The notes below the pieces were generated by a model. The model did no database searches and was not told the DNA's origin. It saw only the letters and a list, made by a program, of their open reading frames with translations. From assembly GCA_934630445.1 (NCBI GenBank), contig CAKTWY010000018.1, positions 1 to 21,378 of the forward strand: DNA of 21,378 bases. Reading direction: 5' to 3'. Positions 4,171 through 10,073 of the stretch are shown in pieces. Source of the stretch: an uncultured Eubacteriales bacterium. GTDB taxonomy: Bacteria > Bacillota > Clostridia > Oscillospirales > Butyricicoccaceae. Each line of letters starts with the position of its first letter. The stretch's first letter is position 1. Made by a program: the position numbers and the translations under genes.

Positions 4171-5619
4171 ATGGAAGACTTGATTTTGACAGGCGGAACC
4201 GTTGTCACGATGGACGGCGCGCACCGCGTCATCCCCGGCGGCGCAGTGGCGGTGAAGGACGGGCGCATCACCGCTGTCGGCACGGCGGAGCAGCTGGCGG
4301 CGCTCGACGCCGCGCGCGTTGTGCGCACGGAGGGGAAAATCGTCCTCCCGGGCCTCATCAACTGCCACTCGCACGCCGGCCACTGCATCGTCGGCAAGCT
4401 CGAAACGGACAGCATGTACCGCTGGTGGCCGATGCTGATCGAGGTGTATGAAAATTATGCGGACGCGGCCTTCTGGCATGCGGACGGAGCGCTGCACGCA
4501 TGCGCAGCGCTCAGGAACGGCATCACCACGTCCGTCAATGTCATGGGCAGCACCCCGATGGGCGACTGCCCTGAGATACCGGCCAGCCACGCCGCGGGCT
4601 ATGCCGGGGTCGGCGGGCGCGAAATCCTCGGCGTCGGCATCCCGCATGCGGAGACGTACCCCAAGACCTATACCCGCTGGAAGAATGGAAAGCGCGCAGC
4701 GCTCCGTGCCGGAGTCGACGATATGCTTGCCGGAACGGAGGAGGCGCTGAAAACCGTGCATAACGCGCACGGGGGCCTCACGCAGGTGTTCGTCACGCCG
4801 CATCAGCAGCTGATGGGGCACGAACCGGGGGAGAAAAATCCCGCGAACCTCACCAGGCTGACGCAGCTGGAACTGGATATCAACCGCAAGGTGCGCGCGC
4901 TGGCCAGAAAATACGCCACACAGGTGTATACCGACACTTATGGCGGCTGGGTGACGCTTGCCTATACGGACAAGGAGAATATGCTCCTGGGGGAGGACGT
5001 GCTCATTGGGATGGAGCATGTCGCCGCGACGGACTACCGCGAGGTGCAGATTATCGCCGAGACCGGCACCAAGGTCTATTACACGAGCGAGGGCCTTTAT
5101 AAGCGTGTGCCGGTCAGCGAGCTGATGGCGCTGGGCGTACCGGTATCGATCACGACGAACGGCTGCGCGCCGCGCACGACGCTCGACCTTCTGGAAGCGC
5201 TGCGCCGCGCCGTGCTTGCCGAGCGGATCTTTCACGACGATGCAGCGTATCTGCACGCGGCCAGGGCGCTCGCCTGCGTCACGACCGACGCGGCGCGCTG
5301 CATCGGCCGGGCGCACGACCTGGGGTCGCTGGAAGCGGGCAAGTGCGCGGATATCGCAGTCCTTGACGCGTCGCGCGCGGACATGCTGCCGCTGACAGAC
5401 CCGCTCTCGCGCATCGTGACGAACGCCGCGGGCGGCGACTTCTGCATGACGATCGTCGGCGGCAAAGTCGTCTTTGAAGACGGCACGATCCGCACGGTCG
5501 ATGAGCGCGATGTTCTGCGCGAGGCGGATGAAGTGCATGCGCGCATGGTGCGCGACCTGAAGCTGGAGGATTACGCCTGCAAGCCCATCTGGGGCAAGAC
5601 GCGCATGGAATTTATCTGA
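4171..5619 (+). CDS. amidohydrolase-superfamily protein (chlorohydrolase/deaminase-like; HxH present)
   Basis: ATG at 4171, one nucleotide after the upstream stop, with a GAGGAGG ribosome-binding site. Protein features are MEDLILTGGTVVTMDG…, GRITAVG, PGLINCHSHAGH (HxH) and a C-terminal GSLEAGKCADIAVLD. The annotated upstream extension of this ORF (3949..) overlaps the previous gene and is Arg-rich junk. Confidence 0.75.
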   Translation: MEDLILTGGTVVTMDGAHRVIPGGAVAVKDGRITAVGTAEQLAALDAARVVRTEGKIVLPGLINCHSHAGHCIVGKLETDSMYRWWPMLIEVYENYADAAFWHADGALHACAALRNGITTSVNVMGSTPMGDCPEIPASHAAGYAGVGGREILGVGIPHAETYPKTYTRWKNGKRAALRAGVDDMLAGTEEALKTVHNAHGGLTQVFVTPHQQLMGHEPGEKNPANLTRLTQLELDINRKVRALARKYATQVYTDTYGGWVTLAYTDKENMLLGEDVLIGMEHVAATDYREVQIIAETGTKVYYTSEGLYKRVPVSELMALGVPVSITTNGCAPRTTLDLLEALRRAVLAERIFHDDAAYLHAARALACVTTDAARCIGRAHDLGSLEAGKCADIAVLDASRADMLPLTDPLSRIVTNAAGGDFCMTIVGGKVVFEDGTIRTVDERDVLREADEVHARMVRDLKLEDYACKPIWGKTRMEFI

Positions 5620-6112
5620 GATTGACTGAGCAGCCGACACAGCTGTTCCTCTCGCGCGCCCGCGGCTGTGAAAACGTGCGGAAATATTCCGCGAGCAGGG
5701 CGATAAACTGGCTGTTTGTCGGCCGTTCATTCAAATCTGAATGTGTCAGTTCAGAGAACAGACCTTGCCCGCCAGTGAGCCAGATGCGCTCAATTGCGTG
5801 GCGCATTGCGCGTTCGATGTTGAAGGATGCAGTGTCGTGGCGCTTTGCAAGCGGCGGGTAGATATCCTTTGTAATGTTCACAGGCGCCGGACTGTGCTCG
5901 AGATACAGAGCGACGGCCTGGCAAAGATAGACGTATCCCTTCCGGTGCGGAGAGAGACCAAGTTGGGTCAGCACGGAGGCGATTTGCGCGTCCAGGGAAG
6001 AGTCGCACGCGTCAGGCGCGGCATCTTCCCAGGCGCGCTCTTTTTTATCCTGCAGGGTGATGGTCAGAATGGTGCCGTTGCCGATCTCCAGCTGAAATAT
6101 CTTGCCCTCCAT
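5612..6112 (-). CDS. Spo0A C-terminal (DNA-binding, 0A-box-binding) domain protein with no receiver domain
   Basis: 166-aa ORF. Residues about 55-166 (GYVYLCQAVALYLEH…ITKDIYPPLAKRHDTASFNIERAMRHAIERIW…ERPTNSQFIALLAEYF) align by eye with the B. subtilis Spo0A C-domain (GYLYLREAI…[32 protein letters not shown]…KPTNSEFIAMVADKL). The N-terminal 50 aa have no resemblance to a CheY-like receiver. GGAAGGGG ribosome-binding site 8 nt upstream of the ATG. Confidence 0.7.
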   Translation of the reverse strand: MEGKIFQLEIGNGTILTITLQDKKERAWEDAAPDACDSSLDAQIASVLTQLGLSPHRKGYVYLCQAVALYLEHSPAPVNITKDIYPPLAKRHDTASFNIERAMRHAIERIWLTGGQGLFSELTHSDLNERPTNSQFIALLAEYFRTFSQPRARERNSCVGCSVNLR

Positions 6113-6180
6113 GAGATTGCCCCTTCCAAAAATGGTAATAATTCTTCTGATTATTCCATTTTTTTGTAAAATATGTTATT

Positions 6181-6208
6181 ATTCTATCGGCAGCCGGGAA
6201 AAAGTCAA
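6181..6208 (-). promoter_or_regulatory. candidate sigma-A promoter for the Spo0A_C gene (-35 TTGACT, 16 bp, -10 TAGAAT on the minus strand)
   Basis: Plus-strand agtcaa (6203-6208) and attcta (6181-6186) give TTGACT-N16-TAGAAT on the minus strand, about 70 nt upstream of the start codon, in an AT-rich divergent region. Confidence 0.4.
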
Positions 6209-6219
6209 GCATTTCATTC

Positions 6220-6226
6220 TGTCGAA
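6220..6226. promoter_or_regulatory. perfect Spo0A '0A box' heptamer TGTCGAA
   Basis: Exact match to the 0A-box consensus (TGNCGAA), 12 bp upstream of the candidate -35 of the Spo0A_C-like gene and 36 bp upstream of the XRE regulator start. The same 7-mer also occurs once by chance inside the LacI coding sequence (1637-1643), so the motif alone is not statistically significant. Confidence 0.3.
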
Positions 6227-6261
6227 AATTTCCAAAATTGGAAGATTGGAAGGAAATGAAC

Positions 6262-6987
6262 ATGCTGTACAGAAAATTAAAGGTCATCATGCACGACAGG
6301 GGATACACTTATGACGATCTGGCCCGTTTAAGCGGTGTTCCGCTGGCAACGCTGACGAAGATCGGCAGCGGCGTAACGCGTAATCCCGGCTTTGAAACAA
6401 TGGAGCGCATCGCACGCACACTGCGCTGCTCGCTGGACGAGTTTTCCGAAGCGGAGCCGATGATCCCCTATGGCTACGAGAGCTATGTCAGCCGGGGCCT
6501 TCAGCTTCCTTCGAATATGAGGGAGTACATAAGATTTCTGATCGATATCGAATTCGACCGGATGACGTATCTGCGTTCGCATGACTATCTGGAGGTAAAA
6601 TGCTTTGAATTTACGACCTTTGCGCGCGGACGCGGGGAATACGCCAGCCGGATTATTACAAATGTTGCCGTTGAGAAAACGCCTGAGGCACGCTTATGCA
6701 CGTTTGGCATCCGTGTCAATACGGATCTGTGGCGGCCGAAGTTTTCCCGCGGCGCGCTCCTGGGGTTTCATTATGACGATACGTACAAGCCCAGACAGGG
6801 GGAGATATGGGCGATGCTCTGTAAGGGCATGGTCACGATTGGACGGTTTTACAGGCAGGATGATGGATTTATGCTGCGCGCCTTCCGCGATAAAGGAGGA
6901 GACGAGCAGTGGACTGCGCCGAACGAGGTCAAGGGCCTGGGAAAATTCATCGGCGTTCTGAAAGAATGGCATGGTGCGCCGGAATAG
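6262..6987 (+). CDS. XRE-family (Cro/C1 HTH_3) transcriptional regulator with an approximately 160-aa C-terminal domain of unknown function
   Basis: MLYRKLKVIMHDRGYTYDDLARLSGVPLATLTKIGSGVTRNP…ERIARTLRCSLDEF is a typical XRE helix-turn-helix. The ATG at 6262 has a GGAAGG ribosome-binding site 8 nt upstream; in-frame ATGs at 6238 and 6256 lack proper spacing. The C-terminal half has beta-rich character but no LexA-like Ser/Lys dyad recognisable by eye. Confidence 0.7.
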   Translation: MLYRKLKVIMHDRGYTYDDLARLSGVPLATLTKIGSGVTRNPGFETMERIARTLRCSLDEFSEAEPMIPYGYESYVSRGLQLPSNMREYIRFLIDIEFDRMTYLRSHDYLEVKCFEFTTFARGRGEYASRIITNVAVEKTPEARLCTFGIRVNTDLWRPKFSRGALLGFHYDDTYKPRQGEIWAMLCKGMVTIGRFYRQDDGFMLRAFRDKGGDEQWTAPNEVKGLGKFIGVLKEWHGAPE

Positions 6988-7092: not shown

Positions 7093-7494
7093 ATGGCAAG
7101 GCCGCAGAAATGCAGATGTATCTGCTCAATGCCGAAGACAAGCATGTTTTTTCCGGCGGACGGCGATGGCAGCGCCGGGTGTGTGGTCCTCGGACTCGAC
7201 GAGTACGAAGTCATACGCCTGCTCGATCTGGAGCATTTTTCACAGGAGCGGTGTGCAAAGCGGATGAATATTGCGCGCACAACGGTTACACGGATGTACG
7301 ATACCGCGCGGGAGAAAATTGCAGAGGCGCTTGTAGGCGGTAAGCGCCTTGTCATTGACGGAGGGAATATCATGGTCTGCAAGCGTATGAAGCCGGAATG
7401 CCGGAACGAGCCCCACTGCTGTCACAGGGATGCTGCGTCGGCGGATACGCAGCGGACCGATCCGAAAAACGAGTGTAAAGGAGAAGGAAGATGA
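7093..7494 (+). CDS. DUF134/UPF0251-family predicted DNA-binding protein, Cys-rich
   Basis: The N-terminal MARPQKCRCI… is the hallmark start of DUF134 proteins. A sigma-70 region-4-like helix-turn-helix follows (…EYEVIRLLDLEHFSQERCAKRMNIARTTVTRMYDTAREKIAEAL…). Cysteines cluster at C7/C9/C11/C30 and in the C-terminal CKRMKPECRNEPHCCH. AAAGGGGGAAAG ribosome-binding site. The stop TGA overlaps the next start codon (ATGA). Confidence 0.7.
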   Translation: MARPQKCRCICSMPKTSMFFPADGDGSAGCVVLGLDEYEVIRLLDLEHFSQERCAKRMNIARTTVTRMYDTAREKIAEALVGGKRLVIDGGNIMVCKRMKPECRNEPHCCHRDAASADTQRTDPKNECKGEGR

Positions 7495-10073
7495 AAGTAC
7501 TCATCATCGGCGGTGTCGCCGCAGGAACAAAAACCGCGGCAAAGCTGAAACGCGAAGACCGCGATGCCGACGTGACGCTCATTACGAAGAGCCGCGATAT
7601 CTCCTACGCGGGCTGCGGCCTGCCGTACTACATAGGCGGCGTGATTGAGGACAGGGAAGAGCTGATCGTCAACACACCGGAAAAGTATCAGGCGCTTACA
7701 GGCGTAAATGTGCGCACTGGCCGCGAGGCTGTCGTGCTCGATGCACAGGAAAAATCGGTGTTGGCGAAAAATCTCACCACGGACGAGCAGGAGCGCTACG
7801 CTTACGACAAGCTGGTCATTGCCGTGGGTGCGTCCGCCGTGCTGCCGCCTGTCGAGGGAATTGATCTGCAGGGTGTTTTTTCGCTCCGTACGCCGGACGA
7901 TGCGATTGCCGCGCGCGATTATGTGAAAGGCAGCGGCGTCAGGCGTGCTGTCGTTATAGGCGGGGGCTTTATCGGCCTTGAGGCCGCGGAAAATTTGAAA
8001 GCACAGGGCGTGCTTGTCACGGTGGTGGATTTTGCATCGCAGATCATGCCCGGCGTGTTCGACGCCGAGATGGCGGACTATGTCAGCCGTCATCTGCAGA
8101 AAAACGGCGTGCGCGTCGTGACCGGTGCGCGCGTCGAGGCACTGCTCGGAGAGGGGCGCGTGGGCGCGGTGCGTACCACGGCGGGCACATTCCCCTGCGA
8201 TATGGCGGTCATGGCGGTCGGTATCCGGCCGAACACAGCGTTTTTGCAGGGGAGCGGCCTGGCGATGGAAAAGGGCGCGATCCTTGTCGACGAATATCTG
8301 CGCACGAATCTGGCTGATGTGTACGCGGCGGGCGACTGTGCGCTTGTGAAAAACCGCCTGACGGGCGATACGCAGTATGCGCCTATGGGATCGAGTGCGA
8401 ATCTCGAGGGGCGCACGCTCGCGCAGGTGCTTGCAGGGCGGGATAAACGCTTTTCAGGTGTCCTTGGAACGGGGATCGTAAAGCTGCCGGAGCTGAATTG
8501 CGGCAGAACAGGTTTGACGGAGAGCGCCGCGCGCGCTGCGGGCTATGATGTGGAAACGGTGCTCGCCGTAACGGACGACAAAGCGCATTATTATCCGGGC
8601 ACAGCGCTCTTTATGACAAAGCTGATCGCCGAGCGCAGGAGCCGCAGACTCCTCGGTGCGCAGGTCCTCGGTGCGGGCGCGGTGGACAAGATGGTCGATA
8701 TTGCCGTGCTTGCCATCTCCATGGGAGCGGCGCTGGAGGACCTTGAAAATCTCGACTTCGCCTACGCTCCGCCTTTTTCGACGGCCATCCACCCGTTTGT
8801 ACAGGCGGTCTATATTTTGCAGAATAAGATGGACGGCGCGCTCGCGAGCATGACGCCGGCCGAGTATCTGGCCGGAAAGGCCGAAGGTTACCGCGTGATC
8901 GACGTTGCGCAGGCGCCGAAAATTCCGGGCGCGACGTTTGTGAATCTCAGTGCTGTCAACGGGCCGATCGAAGGCGTCGGAAAGGATGAAAAGCTGCTGC
9001 TCGTATGCAACAGGGGAAAACGCGCGTACTTTCTGCAAAACCGCCTGAAACATTACGGCTACAAAAATACCGTGGTGCTTGAAGGGGCGACAGTCTTTAA
9101 CGAAGTACGCGTGGCGGGCGCGGTCTCGGCTGTTTCAGACGCAGATATCACGCGGGTGAAGGCGCTCGGCTTTCTGCGCGATAAGACGACGCCTGACTGC
9201 TTCAACGCGCGCGTCATCACACGAAACGGCAAGATCACGGCTGAAGAGAGCCGCGCCATCAGTGAGGCCGCCGAGCGCTTCGGAAGCGGCGAAATCGCCA
9301 TGACCTCGCGCCTGACGATCGAGATACAGGCTGTGCCGTATGCGAACATCGAACCGCTCAGGTCCTTCCTCGCGCAGGCGGGGCTGGAAACGGGCGGAAC
9401 GGGGTCGAAGGTACGCCCGGTCGTCTCCTGCAAGGGCACGACCTGCCAGTATGGCCTTATCGACACCTTCTCCCTCTCGGAAGAGATCCACGAGCGGTTT
9501 TATCACGGCTACGCCGGGGTAAAGCTGCCGCATAAATTTAAAATCGCCGTGGGCGGGTGCCCGAACAACTGCGTAAAGCCCGATCTGAACGACCTGGGAA
9601 TCATCGGGCAGAAGGTGCCGCAGATGGATCTGAGTCTTTGCCGCGGCTGCAGGGTATGTCAGGTGGAAAACGCCTGTCCGATCAAGGCGGCCAGGGTTCA
9701 GGACGGAAAACTCGTCATCGATGCCGGTGCGTGCAACCACTGCGGACGCTGCATCGGAAAATGTCCGTTCAAGGCGGTCGAGCGCTTCGTTGCCGGCTAC
9801 CGGATCTATATCGGCGGCAGATGGGGCAAGCGTGTGGCGCACGGACGGTATCTCGACCGGGTCTTCACGGACAGGAGCGAGGTGCTCGATGTGGTCGAAA
9901 AGGCGATCCTCCTTTTCCGCGAGCAGGGGATTACCGGCGAGCGCTTCGCCGATACGATCGCGCGCCTTGGCTTTGACGCCGTGCAGGAGGAGCTGCTGCG
10001 GAACGATCTTCTCGCGCGCAAAGAGGAAAACATCGCCGCGCAGAAGCACCTCAAAGGCGGCGCCACATGCTGA
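7491..10073 (+). CDS. 860-aa three-domain fusion: CoA-disulfide reductase/NADH oxidase-like flavoprotein + rhodanese + siroheme sulfite-reductase-like domain (AsrC/DsrB-type) with a 2x[4Fe-4S] ferredoxin insert
   Basis: Residues 1-440 have the GxGxxG FAD site (MKVLIIGGVAAGT), the single redox Cys motif SYAGCGLPYY and a second Rossmann fold (VVIGGGFIGLE), as in the CoADR/Nox/Npr family. Residues about 450-545 are a rhodanese domain with a CNRGKR active-site loop. Residues about 550-860 carry a nitrite/sulfite-reductase ferredoxin-like half-domain, then CKGTTC…GGCPNNC (siroheme-[4Fe-4S] Cys ligands), then CRGCRVCQVENACP and CNHCGRCIGKCP (two ferredoxin-type clusters). It is translationally coupled to the DUF134 gene. 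Confidence 0.8.
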   Translation: MKVLIIGGVAAGTKTAAKLKREDRDADVTLITKSRDISYAGCGLPYYIGGVIEDREELIVNTPEKYQALTGVNVRTGREAVVLDAQEKSVLAKNLTTDEQERYAYDKLVIAVGASAVLPPVEGIDLQGVFSLRTPDDAIAARDYVKGSGVRRAVVIGGGFIGLEAAENLKAQGVLVTVVDFASQIMPGVFDAEMADYVSRHLQKNGVRVVTGARVEALLGEGRVGAVRTTAGTFPCDMAVMAVGIRPNTAFLQGSGLAMEKGAILVDEYLRTNLADVYAAGDCALVKNRLTGDTQYAPMGSSANLEGRTLAQVLAGRDKRFSGVLGTGIVKLPELNCGRTGLTESAARAAGYDVETVLAVTDDKAHYYPGTALFMTKLIAERRSRRLLGAQVLGAGAVDKMVDIAVLAISMGAALEDLENLDFAYAPPFSTAIHPFVQAVYILQNKMDGALASMTPAEYLAGKAEGYRVIDVAQAPKIPGATFVNLSAVNGPIEGVGKDEKLLLVCNRGKRAYFLQNRLKHYGYKNTVVLEGATVFNEVRVAGAVSAVSDADITRVKALGFLRDKTTPDCFNARVITRNGKITAEESRAISEAAERFGSGEIAMTSRLTIEIQAVPYANIEPLRSFLAQAGLETGGTGSKVRPVVSCKGTTCQYGLIDTFSLSEEIHERFYHGYAGVKLPHKFKIAVGGCPNNCVKPDLNDLGIIGQKVPQMDLSLCRGCRVCQVENACPIKAARVQDGKLVIDAGACNHCGRCIGKCPFKAVERFVAGYRIYIGGRWGKRVAHGRYLDRVFTDRSEVLDVVEKAILLFREQGITGERFADTIARLGFDAVQEELLRNDLLARKEENIAAQKHLKGGATC

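What the first reader, a model, noticed from the sequence alone, without database searches (positions are those of the whole stretch)
5612..6262. Receiver-less Spo0A-like regulator: Spo0A C-terminal DNA-binding domain behind a novel 50-aa N-terminus, with a 0A box at its own divergent promoter
From the sequence: the 166-aa protein aligns by eye over about 110 residues with the Spo0A effector domain, including the recognition-helix region ITKxxYPxxAK…ERAxRHAIE. It has no CheY-like receiver; the N-terminal 50 aa (MEGKIFQLEIGNGTILTITLQDKKERAWEDAAPDACDSSLDAQIASVLTQL) are unrelated. A perfect TGTCGAA 0A box lies 12 bp upstream of its candidate -35 and immediately upstream of a divergent XRE regulator gene.

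From established knowledge: the isolated Spo0A C-domain binds DNA and activates transcription without phosphorylation, because the receiver domain is inhibitory. A naturally truncated paralog would therefore be a constitutively active, or differently gated, 0A-box binder that could rewire or interfere with the sporulation regulon.
Basis: partly seen in the sequence, partly recalled or inferred. Interest (0 to 1): 0.7.

Follow-up and report, generated by a model that had tools for sequence, protein, structure and literature searches.

The report
Receiver-less Spo0A-like regulator in repressor cassette

Summary
The gene is real. Window 5612-6112(-) encodes a 166-aa protein whose residues 44-143 span the whole Pfam Spo0A_C model (96 bits). 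Its predicted fold matches only Spo0A structures 1FC3 and 1LQ1. It has no receiver domain, and the window holds no receiver remnant.

The kind is not rare or new. At least 7,999 protein clusters match, and about two thirds of the best 120 are Spo0A_C-only. 313 viral contigs carry relatives. Truncated phage spo0A, with the same "signal-independent" idea, was published in 2023.

The perfect TGTCGAA box exists at 6220-6226, but the window holds 2 copies against 2.6 expected. None of the seven other lineages with the homologous cassette has a 0A-like box between the genes.

What is conserved is a cassette. The Spo0A_C-like gene lies divergent from a CI/LexA-fold HTH protein (6262-6987) that has lost the protease Ser/Lys dyad. 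The two genes appear to use back-to-back promoters. A 14-bp palindrome, T[TA]CCA-N4-TGGA[AC], lies 8-18 nt before the repressor's start codon in all eight lineages, including Blautia, Lactonifactor and a [Clostridium] hylemonae-named cluster.

My best reading is an output regulator gated by transcription rather than phosphorylation. Its targets, and which protein binds the palindrome, are unknown.

The parts
5612..6112 (-). Gene for the 166-aa receiver-less Spo0A_C-like protein. The stop codon is 5612-5614 and the ATG is 6110-6112. A GGAAGGGG ribosome-binding site lies 7 nt upstream of the ATG.
   Evidence: ORF and translation. Pfam Spo0A_C 96.4 bits. The cluster has 23 members; 12 of the 15 listed are 166 aa. 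The same gene is found in the 380-kb scaffold L001.
6053..6103 (-). Codons 4-20: the predicted N-terminal beta-hairpin (KIFQLEI-GNG-TILTITL). It is followed by a low-confidence linker at residues 21-38.
   Evidence: AlphaFold2 predicts strands at residues 4-10 and 14-20. Block-mean pLDDT is 82 and 89 for residues 1-20 and 54-60 for the linker. The motif is shared with P0018, P0024, P0053, P0069 and the Blautia, Lactonifactor and L120 proteins. It is absent from the 122-aa protein of the hylemonae-type locus.
5672..5998 (-). Codons 39-147: the six-helix Spo0A effector (DNA-binding) domain. The recognition helix is at residues 96-112 (nt 5777-5827) and contains FNIERAMRHAIE.
   Evidence: Block-mean pLDDT is 86-98 over this region. 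Foldseek matches 1FC3 and 1LQ1 with target-normalised TM 0.81-0.89. phmmer alignment to 1fc3_A and 1lq1_A. Invariant residues are G59, Y85, A89, E100, R104, P131 and N133.
6113..6261 (.). The 149-bp AT-rich (33% GC) divergent intergenic control region.
   Evidence: Sequence and GC content. Homologous spacers of 115-142 bp share the same layout in the other lineages.
6181..6208 (-). Candidate sigma-A promoter of the Spo0A_C-like gene: TTGACT-16-TAGAAT.
   Evidence: Promoter scan gives 10 of 12 matches. At the equivalent position, Blautia, Lactonifactor and L089 have perfect TTGACA-17/18-TATAAT. No transcript data are available.
6220..6226 (+). It is probably incidental, and its GAA overlaps the -10-like GAAAAT (6224-6229) of the putative repressor-gene promoter.
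   Evidence: The window has 2 copies against 2.58 expected. No TGNCGAA occurs in the spacers of the seven other cassette lineages.
6230..6243 (.). The conserved 14-bp palindrome TTCCAAAATTGGAA, a candidate operator. It lies 18 nt before the start codon of the XRE-type repressor gene.
   Evidence: The palindrome is present 8-18 nt before the XRE start in all eight Spo0A_C-paired lineages. It was the only motif shared by 7 of the 7 paired spacers scanned, where shuffles reached at most 3-4. In the window, matches with at most 1 mismatch occur only in this spacer.
6124..6137 (.). A second, imperfect copy of the palindrome (TTCCAAAAATGGTA). It overlaps the ribosome-binding site of the Spo0A_C-like gene and lies 106 bp centre-to-centre from the first copy.
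   Evidence: It is seen only in the window species, so it may be chance or lineage-specific.
6262..6987 (+). Partner gene for a 241-aa protein with an XRE-type HTH, a helical linker and an S24/LexA-CI-like beta domain that lacks the catalytic Ser and Lys.
   Evidence: HTH_26 at 46 bits; Peptidase_S24 at 19.4 bits, below the 23.3-bit cutoff. The AlphaFold model (pLDDT 81) matches lambda and 186 CI and LexA. In alignment A6 the Ser and Lys are replaced across the family (Lys by Gly in most members), while outgroups P0332 and P0334 keep both. It matches phrog_4, a phage repressor family, over residues 4-234.

Best explanation
The 166-aa protein is an intact stand-alone Spo0A effector-domain transcription factor. 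It is one member of a very large, experimentally uncharacterised class. It is not a broken spo0A.

In this organism it is half of a self-contained, chromosomally encoded two-gene regulatory cassette. Its partner, transcribed divergently, is a lambda-CI/LexA-fold HTH protein whose protease dyad is dead.

The two genes appear to use back-to-back sigma-A promoters whose -35 elements overlap. A conserved 14-bp palindrome, T[TA]CCA-N4-TGGA[AC], sits at about the predicted transcription start of the repressor gene. That places it roughly 60 bp upstream of the predicted start of the Spo0A_C-like gene.

The most likely logic runs as follows. With no receiver domain, the activity of the Spo0A_C-like protein is set by how much of it is made. 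That amount is set at this shared control region by a protein bound to the palindrome, most conventionally the dimeric HTH partner. Once made, the protein binds DNA through its conserved helix-turn-helix and regulates targets elsewhere.

**Shown:** the domain content, the absence of a receiver, recurrence of the cassette in eight lineages, the conserved palindrome and layout, and loss of the dyad.

**Inferred:** promoter use, who binds the palindrome, DNA binding by the protein, and its targets. The TGTCGAA box is most likely incidental.
For: **Domain and fold**
- Spo0A_C scores 96 bits over the full model.
- There is no receiver.
- The fold matches only 1FC3 and 1LQ1.
- HTH residues are invariant across 57 short homologues.

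**Abundance of the class**
- 7,021 representative clusters have E <= 1e-3.
- At least 7,999 clusters have E <= 1e-10, and most of the top 120 are PF08769-only.
- 313 viral stretches encode relatives.

**The cassette**
- Homologous partners are 40-52% identical over their full length.
- They lie divergent from a Spo0A_C gene in the window/L001, L089-91, L093, L094-95, Lactonifactor (L097/98), three Blautia species (L099-101, L118), the hylemonae-type locus (L114/115) and L120/121.
- Flanking genes differ between lineages.
- The partner family has only 23 clusters. It was not found in IMG/VR, and on plasmids only the HTH part matches.

**The control region**
- The palindrome is present in 8 of 8 paired lineages, and was the only motif shared by all seven paired spacers scanned.
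- Near-consensus promoters with overlapping -35 elements recur across lineages.

**The partner**
- Its fold matches CI and LexA.
- The catalytic Ser and Lys are lost across the family.
Against: - There is no expression, binding or phenotype data for any member. Promoters are consensus matches only.
- The one partner lineage without a Spo0A_C gene (named Ruminococcus gauvreauii by its source; L116/117/119) pairs instead with a Y-family polymerase operon. It lacks the palindrome even though its HTH recognition helix (PLSTLSKITSG) is nearly identical to the Lactonifactor-type one. This hints that the palindrome may belong to the Spo0A_C-like protein rather than the HTH partner.
- In a rough neighbour-joining tree without support values, the window protein does not group with the other cassette proteins.
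- A perfect 0A box in this particular 149-bp spacer has roughly a 2% chance expectation, so a lineage-specific role cannot be excluded.
- The genome could not be checked for a full-length spo0A.
Confidence: 0.55

Rival explanations
1. The protein is a constitutively active binder of canonical 0A boxes. It autoregulates through the TGTCGAA box at 6220-6226 and activates, or competes with Spo0A at, sporulation promoters.
For: - A perfect TGTCGAA lies 11 nt upstream of the -35 of the gene's candidate promoter.
- My composition estimate gives about 0.016 for one copy in this spacer.
- ER..RH in the recognition helix is conserved.
- The isolated Spo0A DNA-binding domain binds legitimate targets without phosphorylation (PMC3485338).
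- The same hypothesis has been raised for phage homologues (PMC10294663).
Against: - The box count in the window is at chance.
- 0 of 7 other cassette lineages have TGNCGAA in the spacer.
- Upstream of 22 non-redundant viral standalone genes there are 0 perfect boxes (0.45 expected), and 2 relaxed boxes against 1.7 expected.
- The residues aligned to Bsu S210 and R211 are F and N. Every cassette protein has S, N or A at position 211 instead of the usual R or K.
- The region aligned to the Spo0A sigma-A-activating helix is diverged and is followed by a 3-residue deletion.
Confidence: 0.15
2. Retargeted specificity. The Spo0A_C-like protein itself binds the TTCCA-N4-TGGAA palindrome. It thereby shuts off the repressor gene and possibly stimulates its own promoter from about -60, giving a CI/Cro-like two-state switch. 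The N-terminal hairpin would serve dimerisation or docking onto the partner's dead protease cleft.
For: - The palindrome is present in all eight Spo0A_C-paired lineages. It is absent from the R. gauvreauii-type lineage, which has the partner but no Spo0A_C gene, although the partner's recognition helix is essentially unchanged.
- The half-site TGGAA shares T-GAA with the 3' part of TGTCGAA.
- Cassette proteins uniformly lack R/K at position 211.
- The window has a second near-copy at the gene's own ribosome-binding site.
Against: - The absence rests on a single lineage.
- From general knowledge of Cro/CI-type repressors, a 14-bp palindrome with 5-bp arms at the repressor's own start site is the classic geometry for a dimeric XRE/CI-type HTH.
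- From my memory of the 1LQ1 paper, the Spo0A domains there sit on tandem rather than inverted boxes.
- The hylemonae-type protein lacks the hairpin yet keeps the palindrome.
- No co-variation is available to assign the site to either protein.
Confidence: 0.22
3. A decaying leftover of a prophage or mobile-element immunity module (a CI-like repressor plus a phage-type truncated spo0A) with no present function.
For: - PF08769 is enriched on gut Firmicutes mobile elements (PMC6907783) and is common in viral contigs.
- The partner matches phage repressor family phrog_4.
- The pair has slightly lower GC (54-57%) than the window as a whole (59%).
- Between two strains the gene differs at 4 synonymous and 6 nonsynonymous codons.
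Against: - No phage, integrase or transposase genes occur in 21 kb.
- The partner is absent from IMG/VR.
- Both ORFs are intact in every lineage and in most listed cluster members.
- The DNA-binding residues and the operator are conserved across proteins only 31-52% identical.
Confidence: 0.06
4. The 3' fragment of a disrupted full-length spo0A.
For: None beyond the domain content.
Against: - No receiver-domain similarity occurs in any frame of the window at E <= 10.
- The ORF has its own ATG, its own ribosome-binding site and an N-terminal motif conserved in relatives.
- The same 166-aa ORF is found in many assemblies.
- The same architecture is found in cultured Blautia and Lactonifactor genomes.
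Confidence: 0.02

Closest known systems
Spo0A effector (C-terminal, trans-activation/DNA-binding) domain: Pfam PF08769, PDB 1FC3 and 1LQ1
   Same: The same six-helix fold (target-normalised TM 0.81-0.89, rmsd about 2 A, 38-41% identity). The full-length Pfam match. A conserved ITK..YP...A helix and the ER..RHAIE recognition-helix core.
   Different: - No CheY-like receiver and no phospho-acceptor.
- F and N in place of the usual S and R/K at the positions aligned to Bsu 210 and 211.
- A 3-residue deletion after the helix aligned to the sigma-A-activating region, which 11 receiver-type relatives also have.
- An added N-terminal hairpin and a disordered tail.
- From memory, spo0A normally lies next to spoIVB; here the neighbours are an amidohydrolase gene and the XRE gene.
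Truncated, receiver-less spo0A homologues of gut phages and mobile elements (Schwartz et al., mBio 2023, PMC10294663; Jiang et al. 2019, PMC6907783; PHROG families 37855 and 24603)
   Same: Effector domain only. The same proposal that activity would be independent of the phosphorelay. The window protein matches the PHROG families at E 4e-21 and 1e-17.
   Different: - This one is chromosomal, with no phage or mobile-element genes within 21 kb.
- It is paired with a dedicated partner that was not found in viral contigs.
- In a rough tree, many phage and standalone copies sit close to canonical Spo0A, while the cassette proteins are far more diverged.
Lambda CI/Cro-type and LexA-type divergent repressor modules (HTH plus S24 domain; PDB 3BDN, 7JVT, 1JHH, 3K2Z)
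   Same: The partner has the CI/LexA two-domain fold. It is transcribed divergently from a small regulator gene. A palindromic site lies at the repressor's own promoter, and the promoters are back-to-back.
   Different: - The catalytic Ser and Lys of the S24 domain are replaced throughout the family, so RecA-stimulated self-cleavage is unlikely.
- The divergent gene encodes a Spo0A_C domain, not a Cro-type HTH.
- There is no prophage behind it.

Membership tests
Spo0A, the sporulation master response regulator (NCBIfam TIGR02875) | N-terminal CheY-like receiver domain with a phospho-acceptor Asp | tested here: not met
   TIGR02875 scores 84 bits against a cutoff of 200, matching model positions 134-257 only. 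No Response_reg hit. tblastn with six full-length Spo0A proteins matches only their residues from 118 onward.
Spo0A, the sporulation master response regulator (NCBIfam TIGR02875) | C-terminal Spo0A_C effector domain | tested here: met
   PF08769 at 96.4 bits, covering model positions 1-103 of 104. Fold match to 1FC3 and 1LQ1.
Spo0A, the sporulation master response regulator (NCBIfam TIGR02875) | Canonical recognition-helix signature (T-x-S-R/[11 protein letters not shown]) | tested here: inconclusive
   E, R, R, H, A, I and E are kept. The positions aligned to Bsu S210 and R211 are F and N, whereas R or K is found at 211 in 63 of 67 receiver-type proteins. The roles of these residues in DNA contact are from my memory of the 1LQ1 paper and were not verified here.
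Spo0A, the sporulation master response regulator (NCBIfam TIGR02875) | Sequence-specific binding to 0A boxes (TGTCGAA) and control of sporulation genes | not testable with these tools
   This needs EMSA, ChIP or genetics. The computational proxy, 0A boxes near the homologues, is negative.
Stand-alone (receiver-less) Spo0A_C proteins, including phage-encoded truncated spo0A | Spo0A_C as the only recognisable domain in a protein of about 110-200 aa | tested here: met
   166 aa with a single Pfam family. The architecture is shared by about two thirds of the best 120 clusters.
Stand-alone (receiver-less) Spo0A_C proteins, including phage-encoded truncated spo0A | Carried on a phage or other mobile element | tested here: not met
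   The neighbours are metabolic and housekeeping genes. The region is syntenic with the 380-kb scaffold L001. The partner is absent from IMG/VR, and on plasmids only its HTH matches.
CI/LexA-type self-cleaving repressors (for the partner gene 6262-6987) | N-terminal HTH plus a C-terminal S24-fold domain | tested here: met
   HTH_26 and HTH_3 hits. The model matches lambda and 186 CI and LexA.
CI/LexA-type self-cleaving repressors (for the partner gene 6262-6987) | Catalytic Ser-Lys dyad (G-[DS]-S-M-x-P ... K-R) | tested here: not met
   In alignment A6 the Ser position is L, V or F, and the Lys position is G in most members and never K. Outgroups P0332 and P0334 keep both. The Peptidase_S24 score is below Pfam's cutoff.
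CI/Cro-like divergent genetic switch (for the cassette) | Palindromic operator(s) in a shared divergent promoter region | tested here: met
   The conserved T[TA]CCA-N4-TGGA[AC] palindrome is found in 8 of 8 paired lineages, with overlapping -35 elements. Protein binding itself was not tested.
CI/Cro-like divergent genetic switch (for the cassette) | Both regulators bind the shared operators with opposite outcomes | not testable with these tools
   This needs footprinting and reporter assays.

The most novel reading that the evidence does not exclude
The cassette is a previously undescribed signalling unit in which a Spo0A effector domain has been uncoupled from both the phosphorelay and the 0A box. 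Under this reading it recognises the 14-bp palindrome TTCCA-N4-TGGAA. It forms a two-state switch with a catalytically dead CI/LexA-like partner, possibly through its N-terminal hairpin docking into the dead protease cleft. It would then control a non-sporulation programme in gut Clostridia.
Probability: 0.15. Interest if true: 0.7.

Novelty: new variant of a known kind. Interest (0 to 1): 0.4.

Why it matters
Receiver-less Spo0A domains are among the commonest "sporulation" genes on gut phages, mobile elements and chromosomes. I found no experimental study of any of them in the searchable literature. Whether they hijack, block or have left the sporulation network is an open question for gut-microbe transmission and phage-host biology.

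This locus does not change the picture on its own. It does define a small, conserved, chromosomal subfamily with a dedicated partner and a clear candidate operator. The same cassette is present in cultured strains: Blautia producta DSM 2950 and Lactonifactor longoviformis DSM 17459. A partner cluster is also named [Clostridium] hylemonae by its source. That makes the question directly testable with standard binding and reporter assays.

Tried and rejected
1. **Close relatives in GTDB representative genomes.** A scan with the protein itself found nothing. Whether the genome also has a full-length spo0A could not be checked.
2. **Spacer conservation between strains.** The spacer is 99% identical, but the two strains are 98.98% identical over 16 kb. 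The comparison is uninformative.
3. **0A-box enrichment upstream of viral standalone Spo0A_C genes.** There is none. This is a weak test, because many of those genes may sit inside operons.
4. **An RNA hairpin reading of the palindrome (sequestering the ribosome-binding site).** The two arm variants seen (TACCA and TGGAC) break pairing instead of co-varying. The window gene also has a second ribosome-binding site outside the palindrome. I did not pursue this reading.
5. **A self-cleaving, SOS-responsive partner.** Rejected because the catalytic dyad is missing.
6. **Synteny between the window and L094/L095.** The neighbours share Pfam family names but are not orthologous.
7. **Literature searches for the DNA-contact residues of Spo0A.** None gave the residue list. 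Statements about residue roles rest on memory.
8. **Other family searches.** Rfam found no RNA family in the window. PADLOC gave no defence-system membership.
9. **One motif script timed out** and was rerun in a faster form.

Full report

The ORF at 5612-6112(-) encodes 166 aa. Pfam Spo0A_C (PF08769) matches residues 44-143 across essentially the whole model (positions 1-103 of 104, 96.4 bits, E 1.2e-27).

The full-length Spo0A equivalog TIGR02875 reaches only 84 bits against a cutoff of 200, and aligns only to its C-terminal part, positions 134-257. Sequence search of the PDB finds only the Spo0A effector-domain entries 1FC3 and 1LQ1 (E about 1e-20).

An AlphaFold2 model built on 30 homologues has mean pLDDT 86. 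It has four parts:
- a beta-hairpin at residues 4-20 (block-mean pLDDT 82 and 89 over residues 1-20);
- a low-confidence linker at residues 21-38;
- six helices at residues 39-147 (block-mean pLDDT 86-98);
- a disordered tail at residues 148-166.

Foldseek against the PDB returns only 1FC3 and 1LQ1 with E <= 0.001 (target-normalised TM 0.81-0.89, rmsd about 2 A).

tblastn of six full-length Spo0A proteins against the window matches only their residues from 118 onward, at this gene. No receiver-like stretch appears anywhere at E <= 10. The gene is therefore a genuine receiver-less Spo0A_C protein, not a fragment.

The same 166-aa protein recurs in many assemblies. Its cluster has 23 members at 90% identity or more, and 12 of the 15 listed are 166 aa. 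It also sits in a 380-kb human-gut scaffold that is 98.98% identical to the window over 16 kb.

**2. The 0A box**

TGTCGAA is at 6220-6226(+). It lies 11 nt upstream of a promoter-like TTGACT-16-TAGAAT on the minus strand and 35 nt upstream of the XRE start codon.

The window has two copies of the heptamer against 2.58 expected, and 73 of 100 shuffles have at least two. For this one 149-bp, 33%-GC spacer, my composition estimate is about 0.016. That is nominally suggestive, so I tested it comparatively (section 4).

**3. How unusual is the kind?**

It is not unusual.
- An exhaustive phmmer search of 1.84 billion representative proteins gives 7,021 clusters at E <= 1e-3. Among the best 150, sixty are 205 aa or shorter.
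- A profile search of the 90%-identity collection saturates at 7,999 of 8,000 scored candidates with E <= 1e-10. About two thirds of the best 120 carry PF08769 alone (147-202 aa), and one third carry PF00072 plus PF08769.
- In IMG/VR, 313 stretches encode relatives. Of the 80 kept, 67 passed my standalone filter: under 205 aa, not cut at the 5' end, and with at least 150 nt upstream.
- Fourteen uncultured gut phage records in GenBank carry relatives.
- PHROGs has two matching families of unknown function.

The literature already covers the idea. Schwartz et al. [quoted passage not shown] Jiang et al. (2019, PMC6907783) found PF08769 enriched on gut Firmicutes mobile elements. I found no experimental characterisation of any standalone member.

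**4. What is specific to this locus: a conserved two-gene cassette**

The divergent gene at 6262-6987(+) encodes a 241-aa protein. It has an XRE-type HTH (HTH_26, 46 bits) and a sub-threshold Peptidase_S24 hit (19.4 bits against a cutoff of 23.3). Its AlphaFold model (pLDDT 81) matches lambda CI, 186 CI and LexA.

Looking up relatives of the Spo0A_C-like protein showed that homologous partners recur. They are 40-52% identical over their full length and lie divergent from a Spo0A_C gene in each of these loci:
- P0024 (L089-91), P0042 (L094/95) and P0053 (L093);
- Lactonifactor sp. and L. longoviformis DSM 17459;
- Blautia celeris, B. hominis and B. producta DSM 2950;
- a locus whose partner cluster is named [Clostridium] hylemonae by its source (L114/115);
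- L118 and L120/121.

That makes eight lineages with different flanking genes.

The partner family is small, with 23 clusters in 5.8 billion proteins. It was not found in IMG/VR. On plasmids only its HTH matches.

One member of the Spo0A_C subfamily, P0018, has no such partner next to it.

One partner lineage, named Ruminococcus gauvreauii by its source, has no Spo0A_C gene. Its divergent neighbour is instead a Y-family polymerase operon preceded by GAACACTTGTTC. From memory, this matches the Gram-positive LexA (Cheo) box.

In the partner alignment, the S24 nucleophile Ser and the general-base Lys are replaced in every family member. For example, GSSMEP becomes TDLWRP or DDVLEP, and LKRL becomes IGRF in most members. 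Two distant outgroups keep both residues. The partner is therefore a CI/LexA-fold protein that has lost the means for canonical self-cleavage.

**5. The control region**

Comparing the spacers gave four results.

1. No TGNCGAA box occurs in the spacer of any other lineage.
2. A 14-bp palindrome, T[TA]CCA-N4-TGGA[AC], is present in all eight paired lineages, 8-18 nt before the partner's start codon. The copies are:
   - window, TTCCAAAATTGGAA at 6230-6243;
   - Blautia, TTCCATATTTGGAA;
   - L093, TTCCAGATATGGAA;
   - L094, TTCCAAATTTGGAC;
   - Lactonifactor and L089, TACCAAATATGGAA;
   - hylemonae-type, TTCCAAAAATGGAA;
   - L120, TTCCAAATTTGGAA.
3. An unbiased k-mer scan finds it as the only motif shared by 7 of the 7 paired spacers scanned (11-mers with at most 1 mismatch). 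Shuffled spacers reach at most 3-4.
4. In the 21-kb window, matches with at most one mismatch occur twice, both inside the spacer, against 0.51 expected. The second copy, at 6124-6137, overlaps the ribosome-binding site of the Spo0A_C-like gene.

The promoter-like elements share a common layout.
- The Spo0A_C-like genes have near-consensus sigma-A promoters: perfect TTGACA-17/18-TATAAT in Blautia, Lactonifactor and L089, and TTGACT-16-TAGAAT in the window.
- The -35 of each overlaps a -35-like element for the partner on the other strand.
- The partner's -10-like element abuts the palindrome.

This places the palindrome at about the partner's predicted transcription start, and about 60 bp upstream of the predicted start of the Spo0A_C-like gene. 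All of this is inferred from consensus matches.

In the window, the GAA of the "0A box" overlaps the -10-like GAAAAT. That element sits where I read TAAAAT- or TATTAT-like -10 elements in the other lineages. The simplest account of the box is therefore coincidence.

**6. Who binds the palindrome?**

This is unresolved.

A 14-bp palindrome at a repressor's own start site is the classic geometry for a dimeric XRE/CI HTH. That makes the partner the default candidate.

Against this, the gauvreauii-type partner has a nearly identical recognition helix (PLSTLSKITSG) but no such palindrome and no Spo0A_C neighbour. This fits the alternative that the Spo0A_C-like protein binds it.

All cassette proteins carry S, N or A at the position aligned to Bsu R211. 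That position is R or K in 63 of 67 receiver-type and 105 of 127 standalone proteins. The window protein also has F at the position aligned to S210. A shifted specificity is therefore conceivable. I could not verify the contact roles of these residues.

**7. Mechanism I commit to**

The protein is an output transcription factor whose activity is set by its synthesis, not by phosphorylation. Synthesis is controlled at the shared divergent promoter region through the palindrome, most likely by the CI/LexA-like partner. The signal that acts on the partner is unknown, because its protease dyad is dead.

The hairpin may mediate dimerisation or contact with the partner. That is speculation, and the hylemonae-type protein lacks the hairpin.

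The targets are unknown. Invariant HTH residues across 57 homologues argue that DNA binding is retained.

**8. Context**

The remaining genes in the window are ordinary chromosomal genes:
- amidohydrolases and a LacI-family regulator;
- DUF134 and a CoA-disulfide-reductase/sulfite-reductase-like fusion;
- an AraC-family regulator, a radical SAM protein and an M20 peptidase;
- a glyoxalase, YjbR, RlaP, an SPFH protein and a WYL/WCX protein.

There are no integrase, transposase or phage structural genes. No Rfam family is present, and there is no PADLOC membership.

The GC content of the pair (54-57%) is slightly below that of the window (59%).

**9. Verdict**

The 0A-box autoregulation idea is not supported.

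The class is common and has already been noted in print, so by itself this is a new member of a known kind. The conserved partner cassette, the operator and the diverged recognition helix define a distinct variant that I did not find described. It is present in culturable strains, which makes it a practical entry point to an untested protein class.

Noticed in passing
Proteins P0003, P0004, P0005, P0006, P0007 and P0008; not in the window: After the near-identical P0001, the best phmmer hits to the window protein are 394-849-aa proteins with 3-5 separate Spo0A_C-matching stretches. These are apparent tandem arrays of Spo0A effector domains in one polypeptide, an architecture I have not seen described.
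   Followed up: no
L116:2475-4729, L117 and L119 (loci of the partner cluster named Ruminococcus gauvreauii by its source): Here the partner-family HTH protein is divergent from a Y-family DNA polymerase (IMS) operon instead of a Spo0A_C gene. The spacer contains GAACACTTGTTC, which from memory matches the Gram-positive LexA (Cheo) box, and a different palindrome (CCTGTAAATGCAGG) before the HTH gene. This suggests the partner family descends from SOS-cassette repressors.
   Followed up: partly
window 17670-21375 (-): A run of genes on the minus strand: a 313-aa protein with no Pfam hit, an RlaP nucleotidyltransferase (PF10127, 303 bits), a 503-aa SPFH/Band-7 protein, and the C-terminal part of a WYL/WCX regulator. 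This may be an RNA-repair or stress island. The set gave no PADLOC hit except a weak one for the WYL domain.
   Followed up: partly
window 7093-10073 (+): A DUF134 gene is followed by an 860-aa fusion of a pyridine-nucleotide-disulfide oxidoreductase (with a weak rhodanese-like match) to a nitrite/sulfite-reductase 4Fe-4S domain. It lies immediately downstream of the partner gene, and the same arrangement is present in L001.
   Followed up: no
window 5612-5619: The 3' ends of the Spo0A_C-like gene (-) and the convergent amidohydrolase gene (+, ending at 5619) overlap by 8 nt. No terminator-like site was found between them. The overlapping C-terminal tail of the Spo0A_C-like protein (residues 148-166) is predicted to be disordered and is not conserved in relatives.
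   Followed up: partly
L094:6001-6429 versus L095:2327-2755; L095:2883-2896 and L096:655-668: The identical cassette protein P0042 has the same left flank but different right flanks in two assemblies. In L095 and L096, a perfect TTCCANNNNTGGAA copy lies 128 bp downstream of the Spo0A_C stop codon, near the point where the flanks diverge.
   Followed up: no
window 5612-6112 versus L001: Between two strains that are 99% identical overall, the Spo0A_C-like gene differs at 4 synonymous and 6 nonsynonymous codons. The flanking amidohydrolase genes differ at 12 and 5, and at 13 and 4. The numbers are too small to interpret, but they are compatible with relaxed or diversifying selection.
   Followed up: partly
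L085:5803-6000 (locus of P0018): This subfamily member has no adjacent HTH partner. By eye it still has a consensus-like TTGACA-17-TATAAT promoter upstream, and it has no palindrome. It sits among teichoic-acid and cell-wall genes.
   Followed up: no
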